Positions 3,637-56,782 of a stretch of 64,000 nucleotides of DNA are shown here, in pieces. Origin of the DNA: Candidatus Cloacimonadota bacterium (GTDB lineage Bacteria > Cloacimonadota > Cloacimonadia > JGIOTU-2); assembly GCA_023129415.1 (NCBI GenBank), contig JAGMCF010000151.1, positions 1,616 through 65,615 of the forward strand, given 5' to 3'. How positions within the stretch are numbered: position 1 is the first letter of the stretch; each line of letters opens with the position of its first letter. The notes beneath the pieces are model-generated. The model was not told the origin of the DNA and did not search any database. It saw nothing but the letters and a program-made list of their open reading frames with translations. The position numbers were made by a program, and so were the translations under genes.

Positions 3637-4383
3637 CTATTTTTTTATTACTATAATCTGCGATAATTTAAAAGAAGGGATAAAAGCAGTAATTAACTTA
3701 AATATCTTTATCTTAAACGAAATTGTTTCCTCTATAAAATTTTTATATTCGTGTTTTACTAATTTTAACTCACATTTATTTACCATTTCAATTAGTTCTT
3801 TTTTTGTGTATTCTCTAAAATGTCCCGGGTTTTTATTATAGAATCGTATTTTTTCGTAAGGATTTTCCCCAAATAGTAATTTAAATCTTTTATAAAGCGA
3901 TGCAGCATTAGGAGTAGAACAAATAATAAATCCTCCGGGATTAAGTAAATGCTTAAGAAACAGTAGTGAATATTCTGGTGCCTCAAACAAATGTTCAATT
4001 ACTTCAGAATAAACTATTATATCAAACTTTTCTTGAGGCCATAGATTAACTTTTTTACATTCATTTAAATCAAATACAATATGTTCTATGTTTGAACTTT
4101 CTATTTCTCTGTGTCCTCCGATATCCTCTTCAAGATCAAATCCTAATGTAACTACCTTATTATAATAGTTTGAAAACAGAACAGACAATTGACTTCTTCC
4201 TATATCTATAATTTTAGCTGATTTATTTAAATTTATACTTAAACATAGATTAAACAAGTAATTAAAGTGATATTTATGCTCAGACATATAGTGTTGTTGT
4301 GATTCTTTACCACAAGAAATCTTTTTTTCATCTTCCACCCATTTATCTATTAAATTATAATAATGCTTCTTTGCCCTATTCAT
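3637..4383 (-). CDS. Class I SAM-dependent methyltransferase
   Basis: 248 aa. IIDIGRSQ (motif I-like) and DIIVYSEVIEHLFEAPEYSLLFLKHLLNPGGFIICSTPN are typical of Methyltransf_11/23. Confidence 0.75.
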   Translation of the reverse strand: MNRAKKHYYNLIDKWVEDEKKISCGKESQQHYMSEHKYHFNYLFNLCLSINLNKSAKIIDIGRSQLSVLFSNYYNKVVTLGFDLEEDIGGHREIESSNIEHIVFDLNECKKVNLWPQEKFDIIVYSEVIEHLFEAPEYSLLFLKHLLNPGGFIICSTPNAASLYKRFKLLFGENPYEKIRFYNKNPGHFREYTKKELIEMVNKCELKLVKHEYKNFIEETISFKIKIFKLITAFIPSFKLSQIIVIKK

Positions 4384-5556: not shown

Positions 5557-7452
5557 TTAATTTTGCAGAACAGCTTCCATTCTCTCTGCCACAGTTTGTA
5601 CATCCAACCCTTGCATCCCATAAACCTCTTTATTTATCCCAGAAGCTCCATAATTAGTAACGCCAAACTTTGCCAATTTACAGATGATTTCGTAATCCAC
5701 CATTTTAGTTGCAATAATGCTTCCCAAACCTGTATTTACATTATGGTCTTCATAAATAAATATAAAACCTGTTGAAGCGGCAGCTGTTAAATCATTCTCG
5801 CTTATTTCTGAAATACATGAAAAATTCCAAACTGAGACATTAATTCCATCATTCTTTAGAATCTCATATACTTTTAAAGCTTTTTCAACCATTACACCAG
5901 TAGCAATTATAGTTGCATCATTTCCTAATCGAAGTTTATTGGCTTTACCATATTGAAATTGATAATTTTCATTGTAAAAAACTTCATTATTTTCATCTAA
6001 AATAATTTCAGTTTTAGAACGTCCAAGTGGTATGAAAAAGTTACCATTTTCAGAAGCAATATATCTTATCACCTTATCTGTCTGGTTAGCATCAGCAGGA
6101 ATTATTATTTTATAACCAAAGAGGTTTCGCATTACTCCAATATAATCAATACATTGATGAGTTTTACCGTCTTCCCCGACATCCAGACCTACATGAGTTG
6201 TTACAAGCTTCAAATTAGTATTATTAATATCATTTAATCTTTGTTGGTTATAGGTTTCATCAACGCCAAAAACTCCGAAATCAGAAAAGAAGGTAATAAT
6301 GCCATCTTTAGACATTGCTCCAGCAATAACAGCTGTATTATGCTCTTGAATTCCGCCTTGATAAAATTTTTCAGGATTCTCTTTTGCGAAACTATCTGTG
6401 CGAACTGAGCCAGCCAAATCACAATCAAAAACAGCAAACTCAACTTTATCTTTATTCATACGAGCAAGGTCTGCCAAAGCATTTCCAAAAGCATCGCGAT
6501 TGGCAATCTTTGTGCCTTTTTCATATTTGTGAAAACCTCCTAAGTTTATACGCAATTTTCTATTCTTTTTAGTTTTCAATTTAGATGGCGTAAATTTTTC
6601 TCGCACTTCTCTATATTTTTCTAAATCATTTACAAAACCTAATTCTTCTAATGCTTGTTCGCACTGAGGTTCTGTAAGCGGTTTGCCGTGGAACTGCTCA
6701 TCATTCTCCATAAAGGAGATGCCTTTGCCCATTGTTGTACTTGCCAGAATCGCTGTTGGAACATCCTTATTAGATGTTGCCTTTTCCAATGCAGAAAAAA
6801 CTTGATTAAAATTATGACCATTAATTTCAAGCACTTCCCACCCATCGGAAATATAATTTTCTTTGATATTTTGTGGCATTACATCAATGATTTTTCCGCT
6901 AATTTGCAATTTATTATAATCAATTAACACAGTAATATTATTTAGTCCATATTTTTTTGCAAATCTTCTCGCTTCTGAAATCTGTCCTTTTTGCTGCTCT
7001 CCATCGCCCATAACTACATAAACATTGTATTTCAAACCTTTTTGTTTCCCTGCCAAAGCAAATCCACATCCAGCAGAAAGTCCCTGCCCTAAATTACCAG
7101 TTGCCCATTCAATTCCAGGAACAGATGGTTCTACATGTCCTTCAAATATGCTTCCAGCTTTTCTGAAATAAGCGATAGCTTCATCAATATCAAAAAAACC
7201 AAATCTTCCAAGTACTGAATAAATACCAGGTGCAGTATGACCATGACTGATAACAATTCTATCTCGATTTATATATTTGAAATTTTGTTTGGAAATATTT
7301 GCATAATGATACAAAGCTAAATATAAATCTAATGAGGACATTGAACCACCAGGGTGACCACTTTTTGCCAAAGTAGTCATTTTGAGTATATCCCCTTTAC
7401 AAATTCTACTTAATTCCTGCAAATTTCCAAAATTAGCTATACTTCTATTCAT
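5557..7452 (-). CDS. tkt: Transketolase
   Basis: SGHPGGSMSSLDLYLAL, GHTAPGIYSVLG, GNLGQGLSAGCGFALA and VVMGDGEQQKGQ are ThDP-binding motifs. The track start at 7470 is a TTG. The ATG at 7452 lies 1 nt after the rph stop and is preferred. Confidence 0.9.
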   Translation of the reverse strand: MNRSIANFGNLQELSRICKGDILKMTTLAKSGHPGGSMSSLDLYLALYHYANISKQNFKYINRDRIVISHGHTAPGIYSVLGRFGFFDIDEAIAYFRKAGSIFEGHVEPSVPGIEWATGNLGQGLSAGCGFALAGKQKGLKYNVYVVMGDGEQQKGQISEARRFAKKYGLNNITVLIDYNKLQISGKIIDVMPQNIKENYISDGWEVLEINGHNFNQVFSALEKATSNKDVPTAILASTTMGKGISFMENDEQFHGKPLTEPQCEQALEELGFVNDLEKYREVREKFTPSKLKTKKNRKLRINLGGFHKYEKGTKIANRDAFGNALADLARMNKDKVEFAVFDCDLAGSVRTDSFAKENPEKFYQGGIQEHNTAVIAGAMSKDGIITFFSDFGVFGVDETYNQQRLNDINNTNLKLVTTHVGLDVGEDGKTHQCIDYIGVMRNLFGYKIIIPADANQTDKVIRYIASENGNFFIPLGRSKTEIILDENNEVFYNENYQFQYGKANKLRLGNDATIIATGVMVEKALKVYEILKNDGINVSVWNFSCISEISENDLTAAASTGFIFIYEDHNVNTGLGSIIATKMVDYEIICKLAKFGVTNYGASGINKEVYGMQGLDVQTVAERMEAVLQN

Positions 7453-33776: not shown

Positions 33777-33960
33777 ATAATTAGTGTCTGTTCGTAAAGT
33801 CATTGTTTGTAGAACGACCTTTCCGTCTGGGCGCCGAGACCGACCAAGGTCGTTAATGTAAATAGGCTTTTCATGCCAAAGGCAGATCCCTCGGAAAATG
33901 TGCCTTAAGAAAACGAGCTAGGAACCTCGTTCTACATTTACGGACAGACTCTAATTAATT
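33777..33960 (-). mobile_element. MITE-like element, copy A (TIR-bounded, non-coding)
   Basis: Reverse complement of copy B apart from a few substitutions and a 25-nt insertion at 33871-33895. Termini are ttagtgtctgttcgtaaag and catttacggacagactctaattaa. The right TIR encodes the last 7 codons and stop of nrnA. Confidence 0.7.
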
Positions 33961-40316: not shown

Positions 40317-40473
40317 TAATTAGTGTCTGTCCGTAAATGTAGAACGAGGTTCCTAGCTCGTTTTCTTAAGGCACATTTAAAGCCTATTTACATTAACGAC
40401 CTTGGTCGGTCTCGGCGCCCAGACGGAAAGGTCGTTCTACAAACAATGATTTTACGGACAGACACTAATTAAT
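40317..40473 (+). mobile_element. MITE-like element, copy B (157 bp, perfect 21-bp TIRs)
   Basis: taattagtgtctgtccgtaaa (40317-40337) and tttacggacagacactaatta (40453-40473). Internal hairpins gaacgaggttcctagctcgtt and aacgaccttggtcggtctcggcgcccagacggaaaggtcgtt. No ORF. Confidence 0.75.
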
Positions 40474-40548: not shown

Positions 40549-42747
40549 TTATTTAACAAAAATTTTCCCAGTACCATTGGAAATTACTCTTCCAATTTTT
40601 GAAAATCCTTGAATTCCCTTTTTCTGAAATTTGTCCATTAATTCTTTACATTCATCTTCTGGAATAGAAACTAACAAACCACCAGAAGTTTGTGCATCGG
40701 ATAAAAGAACTTTCTGAACATAAGAAATTGATGAACTCCATTCCACAATTGGCTCAACAAATTTCAAATTGGATAAAGTCCCTCCGGGAATGATATTCCC
40801 AGTTGCAAATTCAGCTGCACCATTAAGGAGTTTTACATTATCTGCAAATATTTCAACATCCACATCACTTGCTTTTGTCATTTCAGATAAATGCCCTAAT
40901 AGACCAAAACCCGTAACATCTGTGCAAGCATGGACTGTAAAATCATTTAATATTTGAGATGTGTAATTATTCAAAGTTTCCATTGTCTCAACTAATTCTG
41001 ATTTTTGATTTTTGGAAAGTAATCCTCTCTTCATAGCAGTAGATAAAATGCCAGTTCCAATTGGTTTTGTAAGAAGAATCGCATCATTGGGAACCATACC
41101 AATATTTTTCCAAATTTTTTCTGGATGAACAAGACCAACAACAACCATGCCATATTTCGGTTCTGTATCTTCAATAGAATGTCCGCCAATGATAGTTATA
41201 CCAGCTTCTCTCGCTTTTTTCTGGGCACCTTGTAAAATTTCTTCCAATACACTTATTGGCAGACGATTGGTTGGGAATCCAACAATATTTAATCCAAAGA
41301 GTGGTTTTGCACCCATTGCATAAATGTCACTTAAAGCATTTGCAGTAGCTATCATTCCAAAATCAAAAGGGTTATCTACAATAGGGGTAAAGAAATCTAC
41401 AGTAACAACTATTGCAGTATTTTCATCAATTTTGTAAACAGCAGCATCATCAGCAGTATTTGTGCTTACCAGAATATTCTTATCATCTGGAATGGGCAGT
41501 TTCTGTAATATTGTTTCCAATATTTGGGGTTCAATCTTGCAAGCACATCCCATTCCATGAGTAAAATGAGTCAATTTGATTTCTTCTTTCATATCAATTA
41601 TAATATGCTCTTTCTTTGCTTGAAATTTTTGCACAGTTTTGATAATAATTTCCGCCGCTTGCTCAATTTCTTCTTCAGTTGTAAATTTACCTGTTGAAAA
41701 ACGAATAGTTCCCATTGCATAATCAATGGGCACATTCATTGCTTGCAAAACAGCAGAAACATCTATCCTGTCAGAATGACACGCAGCACCAGCAGAAGCT
41801 GCAACTCCACTCATTTCAGAAAGAATAGTGTTCGCTTCTACTTTATAAAATCCTAAACTTAAAGTATTAGGCAAACGCTTTTCTGGATGCCCATTCAAAT
41901 GAAAATTAAGATTTGATTCATTGAGTTTTTGATGAAGTAGGTCCCTCATCTTTTTCATATATTTACTATTTTTCTTAAGGTCCCTCCCTGCAATTTCACA
42001 GGCTTTTCCTAGACCGACAATACCCAGAACATTCTCAGTTCCAGCCCGTAGATTCTGCTCGTGATCTGCACCATGAATGAACTTTTGCAAAGTTATTCCT
42101 CTACGAATATAAAGAGCTCCAACCCCTTTCGGAGCATATATTTTATGACCTGCGATTGTCAGAAGATCAATCCCTAACTCATCCACATACACGGGAATTT
42201 TTCCGATGGATTGTGCTGTATCTGTATGAACAAAAATATCGTTTTGTTTTGAAATCTTTGCAATTTCTGAAATAGGCTGAATTGTTCCAACCTCATTATT
42301 GGCATGCATAATTGTAATCAAAATAGTTTGAGGAGTGATAGCTTTTTCAACATCTTTTGGGTTAACCAAACCATATTCATCTACAGGTAGATATGAAATA
42401 TTGAATCCCTGTGATTCTAAATATTCACAAACTTCCATAACAGAAGGATGCTCAATTGAAGAGGTTATAATATGATTTCCCCTATCTTTATGAGATAATG
42501 CAATCCCTTTAATAGCAAAATTATTTGATTCTGAGCCACCACTGGTAAAAATAATCTCATCAGGATAAGCATGTATCAAATCAGCAATTTGTTTGCGTGC
42601 ATTTTCAATAGCCTTTTTAGTTTGAATTCCATACCAGTGCATGCTGGAAGGGTTACCAAAATGATTATCTAAAAAAGGTCTCATAGCTTGTGCTACTTCA
42701 GGTGCAACGGGAGTTGTGGCATTATAATCTAAATAAATCGGTTTCAT
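40549..42747 (-). CDS. selD: Fusion protein: NifS-like cysteine desulfurase/selenocysteine lyase (N) + selenophosphate synthetase SelD (C)
   Basis: N-terminal half is a class V aminotransferase (LDYNATTP, HANNEVGTIQP, AGHKIYAPKGVGALY, SAGAACHS). From about residue 390 it is SelD (LTHFTHGMGCACKIEPQILETIL, GGHSIEDTEPKYG). The catalytic position is Cys, not Sec. No stop or frameshift between the halves. Confidence 0.85.
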   Translation of the reverse strand: MKPIYLDYNATTPVAPEVAQAMRPFLDNHFGNPSSMHWYGIQTKKAIENARKQIADLIHAYPDEIIFTSGGSESNNFAIKGIALSHKDRGNHIITSSIEHPSVMEVCEYLESQGFNISYLPVDEYGLVNPKDVEKAITPQTILITIMHANNEVGTIQPISEIAKISKQNDIFVHTDTAQSIGKIPVYVDELGIDLLTIAGHKIYAPKGVGALYIRRGITLQKFIHGADHEQNLRAGTENVLGIVGLGKACEIAGRDLKKNSKYMKKMRDLLHQKLNESNLNFHLNGHPEKRLPNTLSLGFYKVEANTILSEMSGVAASAGAACHSDRIDVSAVLQAMNVPIDYAMGTIRFSTGKFTTEEEIEQAAEIIIKTVQKFQAKKEHIIIDMKEEIKLTHFTHGMGCACKIEPQILETILQKLPIPDDKNILVSTNTADDAAVYKIDENTAIVVTVDFFTPIVDNPFDFGMIATANALSDIYAMGAKPLFGLNIVGFPTNRLPISVLEEILQGAQKKAREAGITIIGGHSIEDTEPKYGMVVVGLVHPEKIWKNIGMVPNDAILLTKPIGTGILSTAMKRGLLSKNQKSELVETMETLNNYTSQILNDFTVHACTDVTGFGLLGHLSEMTKASDVDVEIFADNVKLLNGAAEFATGNIIPGGTLSNLKFVEPIVEWSSSISYVQKVLLSDAQTSGGLLVSIPEDECKELMDKFQKKGIQGFSKIGRVISNGTGKIFVK

Positions 42748-43199: not shown

Positions 43200-43796
43200 A
43201 TGAAAATGATTGAATTGAAAAAAGAGGATTACAATAATGTAAAGCTTCATTATCGTTATATCAGTGATAAATACTATAAAGTAATTTATACACAAACCAA
43301 CAATGGTTGGAATATCCAATTTAAACTAACTCAATCTGAAAATAAAATTATAAAGGATTATGAAGAACCCTTAATTGAGGATTGGATGGAAGAAGAAAGT
43401 GAAAATGGTTGTCAAATATTCGGAATCGAAGATGATGGCAATATTGTTGCCTGGCTTACAATTGGAAAGGAAAGTTGGAGTGATAGATTAAGGATATACG
43501 AATTACTTGTTCATGAAGATCATAGAAAGAAAGGTTACGGAAAATTACTTGTCCAAAAAGCAAAAGAAATAGCTAAAGAAAAAAGATGCTATTGTGTAAT
43601 TTTAGAAACACAAACTAACAATTATAATGCGATTGAATTTTACAAAAAATATGGTTTTAAATTATTCGGATGTGACTTAAACTGTTATCAATATAATGAT
43701 ATTAAAAGAAATGAAGTAAGAATTGATATGGTTTGTTATTTAACTCAAGTTTCGCAGGTGGCAGACGGAACAGAGTTCCGTGTTAACCTGAAATGA
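43200..43796 (+). CDS. GNAT-family N-acetyltransferase
   Basis: LLVHEDHRKKGYGKLLVQKAKEIAKE (acetyl-CoA binding Q/R-x-x-G-x-G/A motif), NYNAIEFYKKYGF. The last ~18 codons (LTQVSQVADGTEFRVNLK) are encoded by the repeat element starting at 43741. Confidence 0.75.
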   Translation: MKMIELKKEDYNNVKLHYRYISDKYYKVIYTQTNNGWNIQFKLTQSENKIIKDYEEPLIEDWMEEESENGCQIFGIEDDGNIVAWLTIGKESWSDRLRIYELLVHEDHRKKGYGKLLVQKAKEIAKEKRCYCVILETQTNNYNAIEFYKKYGFKLFGCDLNCYQYNDIKRNEVRIDMVCYLTQVSQVADGTEFRVNLK

Positions 43797-43998
43797 GGTG
43801 GATTAAAATTGTAACTCGCTTCTCTGAAGCGTCTGTCAGCTGGTCTGGGCGCCTGTCTCCCCATATATCGGGAGCCAAGACGGGCCCGAGCCTGAAAGGA
43901 GCTCTGCTCCATATTATGAACCAGAGATTCATAATACAGACGGAACAGAGTTCCGTGTTACTGAGGGAATAGAGTTACCAAGTGCGAAACTTGAGTTA
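43741..43998. repeat. GC-rich mosaic element with 16-nt TIRs and an internal 24-nt direct repeat
   Basis: TIRs taactcaagtttcgca (43741-43756) and tgcgaaacttgagtta (43983-43998). cagacggaacagagttccgtgtta occurs at 43762-43785 and 43937-43960. The right 193 nt is homologous, in inverted orientation, to 50112-50323. Confidence 0.8.
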
Positions 43999-44404
43999 TT
44001 TAAAAAAATAAAAAGATACAAAATATAAAAAAAAAGAATGACAAAATATGAAACCTGAAAACAGTACCTGTATTGTATGGAATGAAAGGAACAGCATATT
44101 GGATATTGTTGTTTGCAAGATATTGAAAGAAAAGAGTTCTAAGGAAGGATTGGTAGCACTTCCGATATTCCATTTAGTTATGTCAATCTATGTTAGTTCA
44201 ATAATCCTTGATTACATATTTTAGGAAAGATAAACGAATAGGGTTGAAGAGAATATAATCTTCTTTTCGAATGGCATTATGTAATAGTATATAAAAATTG
44301 TAATCCTCTTCATTTCTTTTAAAAAAATTTGACAAATAAAATAACACTTCCTGCTTTTACCCTGCTAATTTGGATAAAACAAACAATAGATTTAGGATGT
44401 ATAT

Positions 44405-44620
44405 TATGAAGCGGAGATATCCCGTTCTCCGAAGGATGAAAAGGGTGTTATCTTGTCATGCCAAAGGCATCATGCCCGAGGCAAATCCCGACTTGTCGGG
44501 AGATCCTTCGGATAAATTATCTACCCTGTCTGGGCGCCTGTCTCCCGATATATTCACCCTTCGTAGTACTACGGAGAACGGGTCGGGAGCCAAGACTGAC
44601 CAAGATCGACGGGGTTAAAT
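44405..44620. repeat. GC-rich mosaic element sharing modules with 43741-43998 and 50112-50325
   Basis: catgccaaaggcatcatgcccgaggcaaatcccgacttgtcgggagatccttcgga matches the 50214-50270 module with 3 differences. gtctgggcgcctgtctccc...cgggagccaagac is shared with 43843-43881. Long-range arms cccgttctccgaagg and ccttcg..cggagaacggg. Confidence 0.8.
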
Positions 44621-44803
44621 TATTACACCCCCTAAACCGATAGTTGGTATGGGCTGATGCCTTTTTTAGTCAATTTGGTTAGATGGTAGAGATAAGTCAA
44701 AATCTAATTTTAATCGTCATTTGTATTAACAGCATGGTCAATGGGTTATTCCTGAAATTCAGGAATAAATGCTCATGACCAGTTTAATAATAAGGAGTTA
44801 ATA

Positions 44804-45094
44804 ATGAATATCTATGTAGGCAATTTGTCACGCGAGGTCACCGAAGAGGATTTGCGACAGGCTTTTGAGCCCTTCGGTCAGGTCGATTCCGTCACTGTTA
44901 TTAAAGACAAGTTCAGTGGCGAATCAAGAGGATTCGGATTTGTGGAGATGCCCACTAAAGCTGAAGCCCAGTCCGCGATCAATGGACTGAACGACAAGGA
45001 GTTGAAGGAACGAACGCTTAAAGTCAATGAGGCTCGTCCTCGCTCTGAAGACCGTCGAGGTGGAGGAAGACGAGGTGGGGGGAGGCGCTTCTAG
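44804..45094 (+). CDS. RRM-type glycine/arginine-rich RNA-binding protein
   Basis: NIYVGNL (RNP2), RGFGFVEM (RNP1), C-terminal RRGGGRRGGGRRF. AAGGAG RBS at 44792-44797. Visibly GC-richer than the neighbouring genes. Confidence 0.9.
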   Translation: MNIYVGNLSREVTEEDLRQAFEPFGQVDSVTVIKDKFSGESRGFGFVEMPTKAEAQSAINGLNDKELKERTLKVNEARPRSEDRRGGGRRGGGRRF

Positions 45095-45278
45095 TAAACG
45101 GCATTTCAGACCTACCTGCGGTAGGCAGACATAACAGAGTCATAGTAGAACTTCGCCTGACTTCGCCGTGGAGCTGATGGCAGGGCACTTGCTCTTTGGT
45201 TGAGTTTTGTGCCCTTTCAGAGCTTATTTTGAGATTAGCAGCAGCGCCCCCAAACCTGCCGCAGCTCACGCTTGACCG

Positions 45279-45407
45279 TTATTCTTCCAATTCCTCAAAC
45301 TTCTTTCTCCCCTTTTCAGTAATAATTCTAAAATCTTCTTTTCTAACTGTTATACCTTCTGTATCAAATTGAGTAAGCATCAAAAGGCATATTTTGCGAT
45401 TACCTTA
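45279..45407 (-). pseudogene. Duplicated 3' end of selB (42 codons plus stop), detached copy
   Basis: About 90 percent identical (12 mismatches in ~126 nt by my count) to 46098-46228. Translates without interruption as GNRKICLLMLTQFDTEGITVRKEDFRIITEKGRKKFEELEE*, versus selB GNRKICLLMITQFDSEGITVRKGDYRFITEKGRKKFEELED*. Confidence 0.85.
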
Positions 45408-45601
45408 TTGAAAAATTTGACAATCAATTTTATCAAATTTTATTTTGATTTCATAATAAGTTGAAGTATTGGAAAAGTTAATTTCAAAAGTATGGTGTTA
45501 GTTTTCGAATGTTGAATTACAAATCATAATGTATTATATAATAAAATATTTTGCAATAAGACACATTTAACAAGCAATAGTAGCATGTAATCATCATAAC
45601 T

Positions 45602-45883
45602 ATGCGTATAGAATTTGAATGGGATTCTGACAAAGGAAATAAGAATATCAAGAAACACAGTGTTTCTTTCAATGAAGCTGCAACGATATTTGGCGATCCT
45701 CTGTCTATGACTTTTTACGATCCTGACCATTCCATTGACGAAAACCGATACATCACTATCGGGTTATCATATCTGGGAAAACTGCTTATTGTTTCACATA
45801 CAGATCGGGTGGAGCGCATACGTATCATTGCAACGCACCAAGAGAGTAAATTTTATGAAGAACAAAAATTACACAAAAACTGA
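45602..45883 (+). CDS. brnT: BrnT-family toxin (DUF497)
   Basis: MRIEFEWDSDKGNKNIKKHSVSFNEAATIFGDP...RYITIG...LLIVSHTDR...IRII is the DUF497/BrnT pattern. Confidence 0.85.
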   Translation: MRIEFEWDSDKGNKNIKKHSVSFNEAATIFGDPLSMTFYDPDHSIDENRYITIGLSYLGKLLIVSHTDRVERIRIIATHQESKFYEEQKLHKN

Positions 45884-46094
45884 TAACGAGCTTCGGGCTG
45901 AGTATGATTTATCTCAGTTACATGGAGGTGCCAGGGGTAAATATGTCCAGCGTTTTAACGAAGGTACAAATTTAGTGCTGATAGCCCCAGATGTTGCAAA
46001 GGTTTTTCCAAGTGATAAGGCAGTGAATGAAGCATTACGGTTACTTATGAAAATCGCAAAGACACAAGTCAAACAGAGAGTTCACCTAGGGTGA
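45855..46094 (+). CDS. brnA: BrnA-type antitoxin
   Basis: ATG at 45855, within track ORF 45735-46094. 79 aa, EYDLSQLHGGARGKY pattern. Overlaps the brnT end by 29 nt. Confidence 0.7.
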   Translation: MKNKNYTKTDNELRAEYDLSQLHGGARGKYVQRFNEGTNLVLIAPDVAKVFPSDKAVNEALRLLMKIAKTQVKQRVHLG

Positions 46095-46101
46095 TTTTTC
46101 G

Positions 46102-48054
46102 TTAGTCTTCCAATTCCTCAAACTTCTTTCTCCCCTTTTCAGTAATAAATCTATAATCACCTTTTCTAACTGTAATACCTTCGCTATCAAATTGTGTAAT
46201 CATCAAAAGGCATATTTTACGATTCCCACCTACCAAATCACGGAACTCCGAAACTTTTATACCCTCTTTATGCTCTGAAAGATACTTCAGTAATACATTT
46301 CTGCACTTATTTACAACTAAAGAATAAATAAAATTTCCCTCAATATTATATATTTTACCTTGATTCGTTAATAAGTTAAGAATCTGTTTTAACTTATTCT
46401 CATCAATATCTTGTGCTTTTGCTTGTGGAATCAATTCTGAAATTAGCGGAGTTTTCATTCCAGAATTTTGAATATAATCCTCTACAAAATCCACTTGCTT
46501 TTTATTTTCTGAAGAAAGAATCACATTATGAGATTTCAAAGCCCAGGTATGATGAACTTTCTTTAATTTATTCGAATCTATCATTTCTTCTAAAATCAGT
46601 TTCATCATATTTTCAGTTGTTGAATCACGGTTGATTCCAAACAAACCCATCAATTCCTCAAAGTTTCTGCCCCGTTCATCAAAGGGATTTCTTTTATGAA
46701 AAGTTTCTAAATTTCGTATAACTTTCTGTTCCAGCTTCTCTTTCTCCTTTTTGAGCATCAAATATCCCTTTTCCTTTGAAGAAATAACAACAATATCTTC
46801 AGGTAAAGATTTGGAAACAACTTCCTGGATATTCTGTTTGGGAATATTTAGAATATCTCCAATTTCCTGGTAACTAACAGGGATTAATCTTTTTCGCACT
46901 TCTGCGGCAATCAATTCAGATACTCCTCCTTCAGTTACTTTACGAAGTTCACTTATAAGTTTTTTAGTTCTACGACGATGGTGGAGAGGATGCGCATCAA
47001 TTATTTCACCTCCACCAAGAGTAATATCACAAGAACTACTTCGAATAACAAATCTATCTCCATATTTTGCAATACAAGGTGAATCAAGATGAATTTGAAC
47101 GATTGCTGTTTTCCCTGGTTCGAGCAGGTTTTTGTCTATAAAATGAATCCGAGCTTGAGCTTGATATGTACCCAAAAGGAAAACCGCTTGAGTCCAGATT
47201 TTAAAATTCCTATTATGTTGAAAAAGTGTAAGTTTTGCATCTATCATTGTTGTGGCTTGCAAAATCCTATCAGAAACACTCATACCTCTCTTAAAATCAT
47301 CCTTGTTCAAACCGACAAGATTTAAAGAAGCTCTATCCCCAGCAGTTATCTCCTCAACCTCATTACCATGACGTTCCATACGACGAATTCGTAATTTTTT
47401 CTCTACTGGTAAAAGATATACTGAATCCTTTTTCTTCAAATGCCCACTAATAACTGAACCATTTACTATCGTTCCAAAACCCTTTACACTAAAAATTCTA
47501 TCAATAAACATTCTGAATAGTTTACCAGTGTGTCTTTGTTCAACTTTGGAACACATTTCTTGTAAAAACTCTTTCAATTCACCGATACCTTCTCCCGTTT
47601 TTGCAGAAATTTTTATGACTGGGAAATCTTGCAGAAATGTTCCTTTTGTAAAATCTGAGATTTCTTCTTCAGCTATCTGGAGAATTTCTTCTTCAACAAG
47701 ATCAATTTTAGTTAAAGCAACAAATCCTTTTTTTACTCCGAGAATCTCCATAATTTTAAGATGTTCAACTGTCTGTGGCATTACTCCACTATCTGCAGCA
47801 ATTACAAGCATAACAAAATCAATACTGCTTACCCCAGCAACCATTGTGTTTACGAAATCCTTATGACCGGGAACATCTATGATACCTATACTATTTCCAC
47901 TTGGCAAATCAATATGAGCAAATCCGAGATTTATTGTTATTCCGCGTAGTTTTTCTTCTTTGTGAGTGTCGCAATCTATATTTGTTAATGACTTTATTAA
48001 AGCAGTTTTGCCATGGTCAATATGACCGGCAGTTCCCATTATTAGGTGTTTCAT
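46102..48054 (-). CDS. selB: Selenocysteine-specific elongation factor SelB
   Basis: GTPase motifs [17 protein letters not shown]. Long C-terminal winged-helix extension (650 aa). Adjacent to selA and tRNA-Sec. Confidence 0.9.
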   Translation of the reverse strand: MKHLIMGTAGHIDHGKTALIKSLTNIDCDTHKEEKLRGITINLGFAHIDLPSGNSIGIIDVPGHKDFVNTMVAGVSSIDFVMLVIAADSGVMPQTVEHLKIMEILGVKKGFVALTKIDLVEEEILQIAEEEISDFTKGTFLQDFPVIKISAKTGEGIGELKEFLQEMCSKVEQRHTGKLFRMFIDRIFSVKGFGTIVNGSVISGHLKKKDSVYLLPVEKKLRIRRMERHGNEVEEITAGDRASLNLVGLNKDDFKRGMSVSDRILQATTMIDAKLTLFQHNRNFKIWTQAVFLLGTYQAQARIHFIDKNLLEPGKTAIVQIHLDSPCIAKYGDRFVIRSSSCDITLGGGEIIDAHPLHHRRRTKKLISELRKVTEGGVSELIAAEVRKRLIPVSYQEIGDILNIPKQNIQEVVSKSLPEDIVVISSKEKGYLMLKKEKEKLEQKVIRNLETFHKRNPFDERGRNFEELMGLFGINRDSTTENMMKLILEEMIDSNKLKKVHHTWALKSHNVILSSENKKQVDFVEDYIQNSGMKTPLISELIPQAKAQDIDENKLKQILNLLTNQGKIYNIEGNFIYSLVVNKCRNVLLKYLSEHKEGIKVSEFRDLVGGNRKICLLMITQFDSEGITVRKGDYRFITEKGRKKFEELED

Positions 48055-48073
48055 AGATTTCTTTCAACCGCGA

Positions 48074-48420
48074 ATGTACGCTAATTTACGCAAATATTTT
48101 TTCTTTGCCACGAATTTACCCTGTGAAATCCTTCAAAGAAGGAATCCCGATATATCGGGATTATTTCACAGGGCAAGCACGAACTGGCACGAACATTTAT
48201 GTATCAATGTAAAAGGCATTTTTGTATTTCTTGTGATACATAATCTATATCACACTTCGCTGGTTCAAGTATGTTACTTGAACCGTTTATTTTAATTCTC
48301 CGGTTCAGATTGCAAATCTGAACCAGCATATAGATTTTAATTTTTGACCTCATCCCTAACCCTTCTCCTATGAGGAGAAGGGAACTAATCTCCCGCGTTT
48401 TAGGAGAAGATTAGTGCAAG
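48074..48420. repeat. selA-selB intergenic region filled by at least 6 hairpin modules
   Basis: ccctgtgaaat[ccttcaaagaagg][aatcccgatatatcgggatt]atttcacaggg, ggttcaagtatgttacttgaacc, ggttcagattgcaaatctgaacc, cccttctcctatgaggagaaggg, ctaatctcc..ggagaagattag. Frame gccacgaatttaccc...gggcaagcacgaactggcacgaaca is shared with 50468-50573. Confidence 0.8.
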
Positions 48421-48421
48421 G

Positions 48422-49822
48422 TTAATTCCTAACCATTTTTCGTGTAATTTCGTGTATTTCGCGGGCAATAAAATGAATATCCTCTTCAAAAATTGTTAAA
48501 ACATCAAAATGCAGATTTCCTTCCCGAAGAATTCCAAGTATTGGTCTTTCAAGTTTCAATAGGTTTTTAAAAACAGATTCAGCAAATTTTTTATAATTTT
48601 TTGGTGAGGTGAGCATTACAGAATAACTATCAATTTTGAGACGAGGAAGTGTTCCACCACCGCTATGTGCAGTGCTTTCAACAATTCTGGCTTTTACACT
48701 ATATTTTTTCAATTCTTCCAATAATTTTTGAGCTAGACTATGAAGTTCAATTTTAGTTCTTTTTAACATCATAAAAATTGGGATCTTTGATCGCAGCTCT
48801 TCTTCATTTATGTAATATTTTAAAACAGTTGATAGAGCTGCAATTGTCATTTTACCCACACGAAGAGCTCTCATTAATGGCGTTTTTGCAATTTTATTGA
48901 TCAATTCCTTTTTGCCTGCAACAATTCCTGCTTGGGGTCCGCCAAGTAATTTGTCACAGCTAAAAGTAATTAAATCGGTTCCAGCTTTCAAACTAGATTG
49001 AACATCTGGCTCATCTTTTAGCGGTAAACCTTCTGGCTTTCTCAAAAGTCCTGAACCAATATCATAGATCAAAATCAGATTATACTTTTTCGCAAGTTTA
49101 GAAAGCTCCCCTATCTCAACCTCTTCTGTAAATCCCTCGATGTAATAATTTGATTTATGTGCTTTTAAGATGATTGTTGTATCATCAGTTATTGCCTTTT
49201 CATAATCAGAAAGTCGTGTCCGATTTGTGGTGCCAACCTCAACCATTTTGGCTCCGCTTGCTTTCATAATTTCTGGAATGCGGAAAGAACCGCCGATTTC
49301 TATCAATTCACCACGAGAAATAATAGCTTCTTTATTTTCAGCAAAGGTTTTCAAACAAAGCAATACTCCTGCAGCATTATTATTCACAACAACAGCATCT
49401 TCTGCTTTTGTTACAAATTTAATCAGTTCAGAAATATGGGTGTTCCTATGACCTCGTTTGCCAGTTTCTAAATCAAACTCCAGATTTGAATATTCAGTAA
49501 TAATAGGCTCTAATTCTTTTAAAACAGCTTTTCCAAGAGGAGCTCTTCCTAAATTTGTATGTAGAACAATTCCTGTGGCATTAACCACAGGTTTCAAAGA
49601 TTTTTCAGATACTATAGAAATGTATGATAGAACTTTTTGAATGATTTGGTCAGTATCCCAGGCTTTTTCGCCTTGTAAAACCTTTGCTCTAATCTGCTCT
49701 AAAATTTGTCTGATTGCATAAGTCACTAATTCTAGACCAAATTTCTCTTTCAGTTTCAAAATTTCAGGTTGATTTAATAGTTTATCAACTCCAGGGATTC
49801 TTTTCAATTCTTCTTTCTGCAT
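48422..49822 (-). CDS. selA: L-seryl-tRNA(Sec) selenium transferase
   Basis: RIPGVDKLL N-terminus, NATGIVLHTNLGRAPL, FSCDKLLGGPQAG (PLP lysine). Confidence 0.95.
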   Translation of the reverse strand: MQKEELKRIPGVDKLLNQPEILKLKEKFGLELVTYAIRQILEQIRAKVLQGEKAWDTDQIIQKVLSYISIVSEKSLKPVVNATGIVLHTNLGRAPLGKAVLKELEPIITEYSNLEFDLETGKRGHRNTHISELIKFVTKAEDAVVVNNNAAGVLLCLKTFAENKEAIISRGELIEIGGSFRIPEIMKASGAKMVEVGTTNRTRLSDYEKAITDDTTIILKAHKSNYYIEGFTEEVEIGELSKLAKKYNLILIYDIGSGLLRKPEGLPLKDEPDVQSSLKAGTDLITFSCDKLLGGPQAGIVAGKKELINKIAKTPLMRALRVGKMTIAALSTVLKYYINEEELRSKIPIFMMLKRTKIELHSLAQKLLEELKKYSVKARIVESTAHSGGGTLPRLKIDSYSVMLTSPKNYKKFAESVFKNLLKLERPILGILREGNLHFDVLTIFEEDIHFIAREIHEITRKMVRN

Positions 49823-49963: not shown

Positions 49964-49984
49964 TAAAACATTTTTATGAATTAG

Positions 49985-50076
49985 CAGAGAGGGCAGGAAT
50001 CGAACCTGCCACAGACGGTTTCATCCGCCCACTACTGGTTTTGAAGACCAGCCGAAACACCAGTTCCATCCTCTCT
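49985..50076 (-). tRNA. selC: tRNA-Sec (anticodon UCA)
   Basis: Minus strand: AGAGAGGATGGAACTGGTGTTTCGGCTGGTCTTCAAAACCAGTAGTGGGCGGATGAAACCGTCTGTGGCAGGTTCGATTCCTGCCCTCTCTG. Anticodon loop CUUCAAA; 6-bp anticodon stem; D stem (U)GGAAC/GUUUC(G) with 4-nt loop; long variable arm GGCGG-AUGAAA-CCGUC; T arm GCAGG-UUCGAUU-CCUGC. No encoded CCA. Ends uncertain by 1-2 nt. Confidence 0.85.
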
Positions 50077-50111
50077 TTTTCTTCTCTATAAACTAATTAT
50101 TGAATTATTAC

Positions 50112-50325
50112 TTAACTCAAGTTTCGCACTTGATAACTCTATTCCCTCTGTAACACGGATCCCCGCGTCCGCGGGGACTGTTCCGTTTGTATTATGAATC
50201 TCTGGTTCATAATCCGAAGGATCTCCCGACAAGTCGGGATCTGTCTCGGGCATGATGCCTTCGGCATGATATGGAGCAGAGCTCCTTCTGGCAGACGCTT
50301 CAGAGAAGCGTGTTACAATTTTTAA
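50112..50325. repeat. GC-rich mosaic element, inverted paralogue of 43806-43998
   Basis: Shared backbone: aaaattgtaacNcgcttctctgaagcgtctg / aaggagctctgctccatat / aaccagagattcataataca / ccgtgttacNgagggaatagagttaNcaagtgcgaaacttgagtta. Extra modules at 50214-50270 and 50160-50177. The 87-aa track ORF here is rejected. Confidence 0.8.
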
Positions 50326-52411: not shown

Positions 52412-52445
52412 TCAACAAAAAGGCGGAATATTTCTATTCCGCCCC
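52412..52445 (-). terminator. Rho-independent terminator of the YVTN-repeat gene
   Basis: Minus strand reads ggcggaatagaaatattccgcc followed by tttttgttg. Confidence 0.8.
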
Positions 52446-52712
52446 TTGTTACCCTTGCGAAGGTTTAGAACCTTCGCAAGGTTCTTTGTTTCCAATCTTA
52501 ATTATCTTATCAAAATTTATTATACGACCTGTCCTTCGTAGTCTTGACGAAGGAGGAAGCACCACTTCGTCCTGATGATCCCCAATTCCTGAGCTCGTCA
52601 GGAACGGGCTTAATCGGGGAGGGACTTCGTAGTGTAAACTTTTCTGAACTCCATAGTTTTAACGAAGGAGTTAGCGAAGGAGAATTTATCCTCCGAAGCC
52701 TTAGCGAAGGAG
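52446..52712 (-). repeat. Conserved 3'UTR backbone with 4 extra hairpin modules (paralogue of 56633-56782)
   Basis: 59 nt (52469-52527) are identical to 56671-56729. Extra modules at about 52528-52557, 52573-52621 and 52644-52671. A 12-bp direct repeat ttagcgaaggag (52671-52682 and 52701-52712) flanks an 18-nt spacer. Confidence 0.85.
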
Positions 52713-56597: not shown

Positions 56598-56632
56598 ATA
56601 AAAACGAAAGGCGGAATATTGCTATTCCGCCC
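56598..56632 (-). terminator. Rho-independent terminator of the FG-GAP gene
   Basis: Minus strand reads ggcggaatagcaatattccgcc followed by tttcgttttt. Near-identical to the 52412-52445 terminator. Confidence 0.8.
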
Positions 56633-56782
56633 CTTGTTACCCTTGCGAATCCCCAATTAAATTGGGGATCAAACCTTCGCAAGGTTCTTTGTTTCCAATC
56701 TTAATTATCTTATCAAAATTTATTATACGAAGCACCACTTTGTCCCGAATATAGGGACTTCGTAGTGTAAACTTTAGCGAAG
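56633..56782 (-). repeat. Conserved 3'UTR backbone (paralogue of 52446-52712) with one private hairpin insertion
   Basis: Private module tccccaattaaattggggatca (56649-56670) sits in the loop of ccttgcgaa..ttcgcaagg. The small hairpin gtcccgaatatagggac sits where the other copy has a 49-nt nested structure. Confidence 0.85.

What the first reader, a model, noticed from the sequence alone, without database searches (positions are those of the whole stretch)
45279..46228. brnTA cassette flanked by direct repeats of the selB 3' end
45279-45407 is a ~90 percent identical direct copy of the last 42 codons, stop codon and a few downstream bases of selB (46098-46228). The only content between the copies is the BrnT/BrnA toxin-antitoxin pair with its own TTGACA-containing upstream region.

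The detached copy keeps an open frame, and its differences are mostly conservative (I/L, S/T, Y/F, D/E). It therefore looks like the 3' end of a diverged selB allele rather than an in-situ duplication that then decayed. This is the footprint expected when an element integrates into the 3' end of a gene while carrying a replacement end (attL/attR-like), or when a TA module is imported by homologous recombination from a related strain. No integrase is present.
Basis: seen in the sequence. Interest (0 to 1): 0.65.

Follow-up and report, generated by a model that had tools for sequence, protein, structure and literature searches.

The report
Toxin-antitoxin cassette between duplicated selB ends
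A small toxin-antitoxin gene pair sits just after the selenocysteine elongation-factor gene selB of an uncultured Cloacimonadota bacterium, bracketed by two copies of the gene's last 42 codons; this is a real, old recombination scar of a kind already described for restriction-modification genes, not a new type of mobile element.

Summary
Window 45277-45404 is a gap-free, 91% identical direct copy of 46100-46227, which is the last 42 codons of selB, the stop codon and 2 nt. Only a BrnT-family toxin gene and its partner ORF lie between the copies. It is not an assembly artefact: four other metagenome contigs from at least three strain lineages (90-99.9% identical) carry the same layout. The event is old. 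Detached copies in two lineages share derived bases, one lineage keeps a longer fragment (at least 165 nt), and the junction differs between lineages by deletions. The copies exchange sequence: in one strain they are identical over 119 nt, and that strain's functional selB carries the 'detached-type' residues. The toxin looks disabled in two lineages (loss of the invariant SAR motif, or a stop codon), while the partner ORF stays intact. There is no integrase within 10 kb, no dif-like sites, and no comparable duplication in about 155 other selB loci. [quoted passage not shown] No empty site was found, so a decayed att-type island is not excluded. Interest is modest.

The parts
46102..48054 (-). 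selB, the selenocysteine-specific elongation factor (650 aa), intact. It belongs to the run tRNA-Sec (49984-50077), selA (48422-49822), selB.
   Evidence: ORF list; Pfam GTP_EFTU, EFTU_D2, Beta-barrel_SelB and SelB-wing_3 (residues 591-636); tRNA-Sec
46100..46227 (-). Attached repeat copy: the last 42 codons of selB (residues 609-650, the C-terminal half of the last winged-helix domain), the stop codon and CG.
45277..45404 (-). Detached repeat copy, a selB 3' pseudogene fragment. It is 91% identical to 46100-46227, open for 42 codons, and has an in-frame stop directly upstream. It abuts the 3' flank of the RRM gene.
   Evidence: same copy in L161, L163 and L164
45405..45601 (+). Region upstream of brnT. 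It holds a sigma-70-like match (TTGACA 45417-45422, N18, TATTTT 45441-45446) and an AT-rich palindromic stretch at 45526-45567. From 45415 onward it is conserved in three lineages. The junction 45402-45416 differs between lineages by deletions.
   Evidence: (I4, I14)
45412..45469 (-). Possible further patch of selB-derived sequence, aligning to selB 46330-46383 with 44 of 58 columns matching. It includes the TTGACA. Treated as possible only.
   Evidence: 0 of 1000 Markov surrogates and 1 of 293 real-sequence controls reach the score. The intervening stretch in L164 is not selB-like.
45602..45883 (+). brnT (BrnT/DUF497 toxin, 93 aa). A 12-nt in-frame deletion between 45829 and 45830 removes the invariant Ser-Ala-Arg-Lys of the RIISARK motif.
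   Evidence: Pfam PF04365 matches profile positions 1-69 of 77 here and 1-77 of 77 in strain B; alignments; PDB 7vd7 alignment
45855..46094 (+). Partner ORF (79 aa) in the antitoxin position, overlapping brnT by 29 nt. Its family is unclassified.
   Evidence: Conserved next to BrnT in six contexts at 68-96% identity. No Pfam, NCBIfam or PDB match. AF2 single-sequence model has low confidence.
46082..46094 (.). Short GC hairpin TCACCTAGGGTGA, followed by TTTTT on the + strand, in the 7-nt gap between the convergent stop codons. Terminator-like.
45095..45276 (+). GC-rich (about 51-55%) 3' flank of the RRM gene (44804-45094), with hairpin 45183-45214 and a T-rich tail. The detached copy is contiguous with this flank.

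Best explanation
A brnT/partner-ORF cassette entered the chromosome of an ancestor of these Cloacimonadota strains by integrase-free, homology-driven recombination. This could have been one-ended homologous recombination with an illegitimate second join, or a single-crossover (Campbell-type) insertion. The donor DNA came from a close relative in which the cassette already lay 7 nt downstream of selB. Such an event inserts the cargo and duplicates the homologous segment in one step. The result is selB with a complete 3' end, then the cassette, then a displaced copy of the last roughly 150-165 nt of selB joined to the original downstream DNA.

After the insertion:
- the displaced fragment was trimmed at its inner end, to 128 nt in this genome;
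- it accumulated substitutions;
- it exchanged sequence with the functional selB end 823 nt away by gene conversion;
- the toxin gene decayed while the partner ORF stayed intact.

Shown: the anatomy; its presence in several lineages; shared derived bases in the detached copies; junction deletions; identical copies in one strain; lesions in the toxin; absence of recombinase genes and of recurrent use of selB as a target. Inferred: the recombination mechanism, the identity of the donor, and loss of toxicity.
For: 1. The structure is real. L161 is 99.87% identical over 16.6 kb (21 SNPs) and carries both copies. L165, L163 and L164 span the inner junctions. They come from other samples, and L164 comes from a different assembly collection (Logan).
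2. There was a single old event. The detached copies of W and B share C at core position 41 and A at position 51. These bases are absent from all selB ends and outgroups. The cassette is 90% identical between W and B, with dS about 0.15-0.17.
3. The original duplication was longer. B's fragment aligns to selB out to position 165. A keeps 13 decayed nt, and W has them deleted.
4. Junction logic fits. Both copies end at stop + CG. One is followed by the brnA end and the other by the RRM 3' flank. This is what two native junctions (donor and recipient) would look like.
5. Gene conversion has occurred. A's copies differ at 0 of 119 positions, whereas W's differ at 11 of 125.
6. There is no recombinase machinery. 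Genes within about 10 kb are DsbD, selA, selB, RRM, GNAT, NifS-SelD, RimP, NusA and IF2. No dif-like site lies between 43196 and 47203.
7. selB is not a recurrent target. No second 3' end occurs in about 155 other selB loci.
8. There is precedent. Restriction-modification cassettes insert with 46-423 bp target duplications without mobility genes, and some of those repeats overlap gene 3' ends (PMC2853133). HFIR and C-terminal displacement leave displaced 3' ends (PMC5361080).
9. A 77%-identical brnTA in an unrelated genome (L168/L170) is also bracketed by a 47-nt, 79% direct repeat of a neighbouring DUF2283 gene.
Against: - No empty site and no donor-type locus (selB-brnTA without a detached copy) was found. 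The closest selB without brnTA (L162, 80% aa identity) has an unrelated downstream flank on a 4-kb contig.
- The left junction (45276/45277) is seen only in the window and in L161.
- A third brnTA context with full flanks (L174-L179) has no flanking repeat. The duplication is therefore not a constant property of this cassette family.
- The data cannot separate one-ended recombination from Campbell insertion. They also cannot exclude an att-type element that lost its integrase before the lineages split.
- Strains A and B are known only from contigs of about 1 kb.
Confidence: 0.5

Rival explanations
1. Remnant of a site-specific integrative element. An island carrying an integrase and an attP that mimics the selB 3' end integrated into selB and supplied a replacement end (attL/attR). 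The integrase and other cargo were later deleted, leaving the stabilising TA pair and the two att-derived repeats.
For: Direct repeats of a gene 3' end with an intact reconstituted gene are the classic island footprint. TA pairs are common island cargo (established knowledge). A duplication of about 150-165 nt is within the range seen for long att homologies, for example at tRNA genes (discussed in PMC2853133). B has about 110 nt of unassigned DNA between the fragment and the promoter, which could be element remnant.
Against: There is no integrase or recombinase gene or fragment within about 10 kb in the window or L161. All three lineages have only 0.7-0.85 kb between the copies. None of about 155 other selB loci has a detached 3' end. 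There are no matches in viral contigs or plasmids.
Confidence: 0.17
2. Purely local rearrangement. brnTA already lay downstream of selB. A tandem duplication or a replication template switch then copied the selB end to the far side of the cassette, and the released copy simply decayed.
For: 8 of the 11 differences are derived on the detached side, and only 2 are old enough to be shared between lineages. The two copies were therefore nearly identical at the time of the event.
Against: A tandem duplication of selB-end plus cassette would need a second, precise deletion of the extra cassette ending exactly at stop + CG. Simple decay does not explain A's functional selB carrying the detached-type E/F/I residues, nor the 0 of 119 differences between A's copies. 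The same near-identity at the time of the event is also expected if the donor was conspecific.
Confidence: 0.18
3. A still-active, integrase-free mobile unit. The cassette together with one selB-end copy is excised as a circle by RecA recombination between the repeats. It re-enters any related genome by homologous recombination with selB, using the host-gene fragment as a homing arm. Addiction would penalise its loss.
For: B's detached copy is closer to W's selB end (5 of 84 differences) than to B's own selB end (10 of 84). The selB end is the most divergent segment between strains. Variants are distributed in a mosaic pattern. A similar cycle has been proposed for RM cassettes with long target duplications (PMC2853133).
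Against: The counts are small and not significant. No empty site, circle junction or second insertion site was found. The toxin appears disabled in W and A, so addiction would not operate there. Shared derived bases argue for vertical descent of the detached copy.
Confidence: 0.1
4. Assembly artefact: strain-variant collapse or a chimeric join that created a false second copy.
For: The window is evidently from a metagenome-assembled genome. Repeats with strain variation can mislead assemblers.
Against: The same layout is recovered in L161 (21 SNPs apart), L165, L163 and L164, from different samples and one from a different collection (Logan). The copies differ at 11 positions and have unique flanks on all four sides.
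Confidence: 0.02

Closest known systems
Insertion with long target duplication of restriction-modification gene complexes (Nobusato et al. 2000, Gene 259:99; Furuta, Abe & Kobayashi 2010, PMC2853133)
   Same: A small post-segregational-killing ('addiction') gene cassette with no transposase or integrase. It is bracketed by direct repeats of tens to hundreds of bp of host sequence (46-423 bp reported). In some reported cases the repeats overlap the 3' end of a neighbouring gene, and they are imperfectly identical.
   Different: The cargo here is a type II toxin-antitoxin pair, not R and M genes. The 2013 review of RM and TA mobility ascribes this mode only to RM systems (PMC3874152). The defining empty-site comparison could not be made. 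This case also shows later trimming, gene conversion into the functional gene, and toxin decay.
C-terminal displacement and homology-facilitated illegitimate recombination (rhs, CDI and T6SS effector-immunity arrays; PMC5361080 and references cited there to Prudhomme 2002, de Vries & Wackernagel 2002, Jackson 2009)
   Same: Incoming DNA anchored by homology in a conserved gene brings a new 3' end plus a linked small gene. The old 3' end is pushed downstream as an orphan fragment, and no recombinase is involved.
   Different: In those systems the displaced tips are functionally distinct toxin domains, and displacement diversifies the gene. Here the two selB ends are near-identical alleles of a housekeeping translation factor, and the cargo is unrelated to the gene.
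Genomic islands integrated in the 3' end of tRNA or protein genes (attL/attR)
   Same: Direct repeats of a gene's 3' end flank foreign DNA, and the gene is kept intact.
   Different: There is no integrase, only 0.7 kb lies between the repeats, and selB is not used as a target elsewhere.
BrnT/BrnA of Brucella abortus (Heaton et al. 2012; summarised in PMC11980606)
   Same: A BrnT (PF04365) toxin gene comes first, followed by a small overlapping partner gene.
   Different: The partner ORF does not match the BrnA/RHH families. The window's BrnT lacks the invariant SAR(K) residues.
brnTA 'pdif modules' on Acinetobacter plasmids (my recollection of the Blackwell/Hall work; one search shows only that brnTA occurs on such plasmids)
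   Same: brnTA behaves as a small discrete cassette without its own recombinase.
   Different: Those modules are bounded by inversely oriented XerC/XerD sites. No dif-like core was found between 43196 and 47203, and no flanking inverted repeat was found.

Membership tests
BrnT toxin family (Pfam PF04365 / DUF497) | Significant match to the family profile | tested here: met
   E = 4.2e-22, 78.7 bits against a cut-off of 34.5. Strain B orthologue scores 99 bits over the full profile. PDB 7vd7 toxin, E = 3e-13.
BrnT toxin family (Pfam PF04365 / DUF497) | Intact conserved C-terminal RIISAR(K) motif, i.e. a presumably active toxin | tested here: not met
   The window lacks S-A-R-K through a 12-nt in-frame deletion. 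S, A and R are invariant in the 9 other sequences aligned. Strain A has a TGA codon at the Arg position. Loss of activity is inferred, not measured.
BrnTA type II TA module | Toxin-first bicistronic order with a small overlapping downstream gene | tested here: met
   brnT is 45602-45883 and the partner is 45855-46094, a 29-nt overlap. The T/A order for BrnT is given in PMC11980606.
BrnTA type II TA module | Antitoxin BrnA with a C-terminal ribbon-helix-helix DNA-binding domain | tested here: inconclusive
   No Pfam hit even at E <= 10 and no credible NCBIfam family match (only a bacteriocin-like-peptide model at E = 0.13). There are no meaningful PDB matches with a single sequence or a 6-sequence profile. 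The AF2 single-sequence model has pLDDT 59.7. The ORF is conserved beside BrnT in six contexts.
Insertion with long target duplication (criteria of Furuta et al. 2010) | The inserted segment contains the complete addiction gene set and is shorter than 20 kb | tested here: met
   The 695-nt insert (45405-46099) holds brnT and the partner ORF only.
Insertion with long target duplication (criteria of Furuta et al. 2010) | Direct target duplication longer than 30 bp | tested here: met
   128 nt at 91% in the window and at least 165 nt of selB homology in strain B.
Insertion with long target duplication (criteria of Furuta et al. 2010) | No mobility genes (integrase or transposase) linked to the insert | tested here: met
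   Pfam tables for all genes within about 10 kb in L161; ORF list.
Insertion with long target duplication (criteria of Furuta et al. 2010) | A related genome has an empty site where the repeat sequence occurs once, with both flanks aligned | not testable with these tools
   Only occupied contigs were found for the exact SelB, RRM and partner proteins. The closest brnTA-free selB (L162) has a single selB end but an unrelated downstream flank.
Site-specific integrative island (attL/attR in a gene 3' end) | Tyrosine or serine recombinase gene, or its remnant, inside or next to the repeats | tested here: not met
   None in the 695-nt insert or within about 10 kb.
Site-specific integrative island (attL/attR in a gene 3' end) | The same target gene end is used repeatedly across genomes | tested here: not met
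   No second copy of the selB 3' end in about 155 selB loci from genomes and metagenomes. The only extra hits are low-complexity tandem repeats.
pdif (XerC/XerD) module | Cassette bounded by dif-like sites in inverse orientation | tested here: not met
   No match to ATAA-N6-TTATGTNAA (up to 2 mismatches) between 43196 and 47203, and window-wide counts are near chance. There is no strong inverted repeat around the cassette. Caveat: the Xer site of this phylum is unknown.

The most novel reading that the evidence does not exclude
The cassette plus one selB-end copy is an integrase-free mobile unit. It moves between related genomes by RecA-mediated excision and re-insertion, using a fragment of a conserved host gene as its homing arm. 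As a side effect, the detached copy acts as a gene-conversion donor that rewrites the SECIS-binding C-terminal winged-helix domain of SelB, as seen in strain A, whose functional selB carries the detached-type E/F/I residues.
Probability: 0.1. Interest if true: 0.6.

Novelty: new member of a known kind. Interest (0 to 1): 0.3.

Why it matters
The case extends the 'insertion with long target duplication' footprint from restriction-modification cassettes to a classical type II toxin-antitoxin pair. The 2013 review I read credits that footprint only to restriction-modification cassettes. It also provides a small time series of what happens afterwards across three lineages:
- trimming of the displaced gene end;
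- gene conversion between the pseudogene fragment and the essential gene;
- inactivation of the toxin by two different lesions, with the partner gene retained.

It is a useful example for anyone studying how addiction modules settle into chromosomes without mobility genes. It does not open a new question or reveal a new kind of system.

Tried and rejected
1. **Empty-site search.** The selB protein scans of GTDB genomes and JGI metagenomes found nothing closer than 64% and 58% identity. Exact-protein look-ups of SelB, RRM and the partner ORF returned only occupied contigs of the same species. P0003 (88% SelB) is truncated before the C-terminus and has no contig on record.
2. **C-terminal peptide search.** A protein search with the last 71 residues of SelB returned only two distant fragments, so that search was wasted.
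3. **Viral contigs and plasmids.** There was no relative of brnT, no copy of the repeat core and no match to the cassette DNA.
4. **Is a flanking duplication a general property of this brnTA subfamily?** It is present at one further locus (L168/L170). It is absent at another locus with full flanks (L174-L179). It cannot be judged at L166, L167 and L171. It is therefore not a constant feature.
5. **Is the detached copy the remnant of a much longer selB pseudogene reaching into the brnT promoter?** One 58-column patch scores above the controls. The stretch between it and the main fragment in strain B shows no selB similarity, and nothing beyond 45470 does either. I kept this only as a possibility.
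6. **Structured RNA.** There are no Rfam hits in 43600-46300 even at E <= 1. Folding of the flank is unremarkable, with z-scores of -1.0 and +0.3.
7. **Fold of the partner ORF.** The AF2 single-sequence model is too poor (pLDDT 59.7) to justify a fold search.
8. **dif-like sites.** None flank the cassette.
Full report
**1. The observation**

The repeat finder reports one long direct repeat in 44000-48500. It is 45277-45404 vs 46100-46227: 128 nt, 91% identical, ungapped, spacing 823. The alignment shows similarity starting and stopping sharply at those coordinates. A pairwise BLAST of the two cassette flanks gives E = 6e-46.

The right-hand copy is the end of a 650-codon ORF on the minus strand (46102-48054). 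That ORF has the SelB domain set, including the C-terminal winged helix at residues 591-636. It lies downstream of tRNA-Sec (49984-50077) and selA.

Translated on the minus strand, the detached copy is open for 42 codons plus a stop, and it is preceded by an in-frame stop. It differs from the real end at six residues: I/L, S/T, G/E, Y/F, F/I and D/E.

Three features lie between the copies:
- a 197-nt AT-rich region with a TTGACA-N18-TATTTT match;
- a BrnT-family gene (PF04365, E = 4e-22);
- an overlapping 79-codon ORF.

**2. It is not an assembly artefact**

The organism is an uncultured Cloacimonadota-like bacterium. The best named SelB relatives are Cloacimonadota/Cloacimonetes MAGs.

- An ENA contig from sample ERZ23498859 (L161) matches the window over 16.6 kb at 99.87% (21 SNPs, no gaps). 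It has the same gene order and both copies.
- L165 (99.7%), L163 ('strain A', 93.6%) and L164 ('strain B', 90.3%, from the Logan collection) are short contigs from other samples. They span the fragment-promoter and brnA-selB junctions.
- The outer left junction (45276/45277) is seen only in the window and L161.

**3. History read from the three lineages**

I aligned all copies with the selB ends of L162 ('O', 80% SelB identity, no brnTA) and L001 (64%).

(a) The detached copies of W and B share two derived bases (core positions 41 and 51). No selB end or outgroup has these bases. The detached copies are therefore orthologous, and the event predates the W/B split. Cassette dS between W and B is about 0.15-0.17.

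(b) B's fragment is longer. nhmmer aligns it to selB out to position 165 (window 46264). About 110 nt of unrelated AT-rich DNA follows before the conserved promoter block. Strain A keeps 13 decayed nt of this extension, and W has it deleted. The 42-codon boundary is therefore secondary. The original duplication was about 150-165 nt.

(c) Of the 11 differences between W's two copies:
- 8 are derived on the detached side (2 shared with B's copy, 4 shared with A, 2 private);
- 2-3 are derived on the selB side.

The two copies were therefore nearly identical when the event happened. The 9% divergence does not measure donor-recipient distance.

(d) In strain A the two copies are identical at 119 of 119 core positions. 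A's functional selB end carries the E/F/I residues of the detached type, but the selB-type bases at positions 41 and 51. This is a gene-conversion mosaic.
- A double assembly switch is unlikely, because the copies share at most 18 nt of exact sequence near the inner boundary (my reading of the alignments).
- The selB end is the most divergent segment between strains. W-A is 6.3% there against 2.6% just upstream, and W-B is 11.9%. This fits repeated exchange.

(e) The toxin has two different lesions.
- B encodes the canonical ...RIISARKTTRRESKFYEE and matches the whole Pfam profile.
- A has TGA at the Arg codon, giving a 78-aa product.
- W has a 12-nt in-frame deletion that removes S-A-R-K. S, A and R are invariant in the nine other family members aligned. 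The Pfam match stops at profile position 69 of 77.
- The partner ORF is intact in all three (96% and 87% identical).

Loss of toxicity is an inference.

**4. What the partner ORF is**

It is conserved next to BrnT in six genomic contexts at 68-96% identity. It has no Pfam hit even at E <= 10 and no credible NCBIfam family match (the only hit is a bacteriocin-like-peptide model at E = 0.13). It has no meaningful PDB relative, whether searched as a single sequence or as a profile. The single-sequence AF2 model is poor, with pLDDT 59.7.

BrnA is defined by a C-terminal RHH domain (PMC11980606). That could not be shown here, so 'BrnA' is a positional label.

**5. Tests of mechanism**

- Recombinase genes: none. 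The genes within about 10 kb are DsbD-like, selA, selB, RRM, GNAT, a NifS-SelD fusion, RimP, NusA, YlxR and IF2.
- dif-like sites: none between 43196 and 47203. No inverted repeat brackets the cassette.
- Recurrent targeting of selB: none. Among about 155 other selB loci (40-64% identity) fetched with up to 10-kb flanks, none has a second 3' end or a brnTA pair.
- Relatives of the cassette in viral contigs or plasmids: none.
- Junction logic: both copies run through the stop codon plus CG. One then continues into the end of the partner ORF, 7 nt from the selB stop. The other continues into the 3' flank of the RRM gene.

That is what is expected if one junction is the donor's native selB-brnTA junction and the other is the recipient's native selB-downstream junction. 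A tandem duplication would need an extra, precisely placed deletion to produce it.

**6. Best explanation**

The best reading is insertion-duplication by homology-driven recombination, with DNA from a close (possibly conspecific) relative that already had brnTA just beyond selB. The route could be one-ended homologous recombination with an illegitimate second join (HFIR) or a single-crossover Campbell-type insertion of a circularised fragment. Either inserts the cargo and duplicates the homologous segment in one step without a dedicated recombinase.

Afterwards the displaced end was trimmed, it diverged, and it exchanged sequence with the live gene. The toxin decayed. I put this at about 0.5.

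Rivals:
- a decayed att-type island (about 0.17);
- a purely local duplication or template switch (about 0.18);
- a still-active repeat-mediated mobile unit (about 0.1);
- an assembly artefact (about 0.02).

No empty site and no donor-type locus was found, and this is the main weakness.

**7. Comparison with what is known**

The closest described phenomenon is 'insertion with long target duplication' of restriction-modification gene complexes. In that case:
- the inserts are small addiction cassettes without mobility genes;
- they are flanked by imperfect direct repeats of 46-423 bp of host sequence;
- some repeats overlap gene 3' ends;
- most cases are in naturally competent species;
- a proposed life cycle runs through insertion, repeat-mediated amplification and release (PMC2853133).

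A 2013 review of RM and TA mobility credits this mode to RM systems only (PMC3874152). The present case meets three of the four operational criteria: complete gene set and size, repeat longer than 30 bp, and no mobility genes. The fourth, an empty-site genome, could not be tested.

It also resembles C-terminal displacement by HFIR in rhs, CDI and T6SS loci (PMC5361080). The difference is that here the displaced end is a near-identical allele of a housekeeping gene.

One more brnTA locus of the same subfamily (L168/L170: ftsY-brnT-brnA-DUF2283) is bracketed by a 47-nt, 79% repeat of part of the DUF2283 gene. Another locus (L174-L179) has no repeat. The footprint therefore recurs but is not obligatory.

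**8. Verdict**

Two corrections apply:
- the divergence between the copies arose mostly after the event and is reshuffled by gene conversion, rather than being imported;
- the 42-codon unit is a trimmed remnant, not an att site.

It is a new member of a known kind of rearrangement. Interest is modest (0.3). Its main value is as a multi-lineage snapshot of how an addiction cassette settles and decays beside an essential gene.

Noticed in passing
window 43750-43998, 44410-44640 and 50110-50310: GC-rich (45-50%) dispersed repeat pieces in a genome of about 33% GC. 44456-44513, 43952-43998 and 43913-43948 match 50269-50212, 50159-50113 and 50213-50178 at 95-97% in inverted orientation. Short internal copies also occur (43762-43785 / 43937-43960; 43843-43868 / 44528-44553). 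They bracket the block RRM-brnTA-selB-selA-tRNA-Sec. There is no Rfam match.
   Followed up: partly
window 33778-33960 vs 40379-40471; 52419-52527 vs 56607-56730: Further intergenic repeat families (85-98% identical) turned up in the L161-vs-window BLAST. The genome seems rich in short dispersed intergenic repeats.
   Followed up: no
window 40549-42747 (-): A single 732-aa ORF fuses a class-V aminotransferase (NifS-like cysteine/selenocysteine lyase) domain to a SelD (AIRS/AIRS_C) domain. In the closest GTDB relative (L001) the two are separate adjacent genes, alongside two further small ORFs I did not characterise.
   Followed up: no
window 44370-44803: About 430 nt of partly GC-rich, repeat-containing sequence lies upstream of the RRM-type RNA-binding protein gene (44804-45094; NCBIfam Rbp_regulator, 111 bits). 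The gene itself is about 50% GC, well above its surroundings.
   Followed up: no
L162 3732-3766 vs 3977-4011: In the sister contig that lacks brnTA, a 35-nt, 97% direct repeat lies downstream of selB. One copy is inside a partial minus-strand ORF (3869-4027, no Pfam hit). The other is about 100 nt beyond that ORF's stop. This may be another displaced gene fragment in the same variable slot.
   Followed up: partly
L168 5914-5960 vs 6734-6780 (same in L170): A 77%-identical brnT/partner pair in an unrelated GC-rich genome is bracketed by a 47-nt, 79% direct repeat. The downstream copy lies inside an intact DUF2283 gene. The upstream copy is a fragment squeezed between ftsY and brnT.
   Followed up: partly
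window 45412-45469 vs 46330-46383: The brnT upstream block, including the TTGACA -35 match, aligns with selB coding sequence at 44 of 58 columns. None of 1000 Markov surrogates and 1 of 293 real-sequence controls reach the score. If the similarity is real, the promoter-like site arose within selB-derived DNA. The intervening stretch in strain B gives no support for continuity.
   Followed up: yes
window 46082-46104: The convergent stop codons of the partner ORF and selB are only 7 nt apart, with a 13-nt GC hairpin overlapping the end of the partner ORF. Transcripts of each gene would probably run antisense into the other.
   Followed up: no
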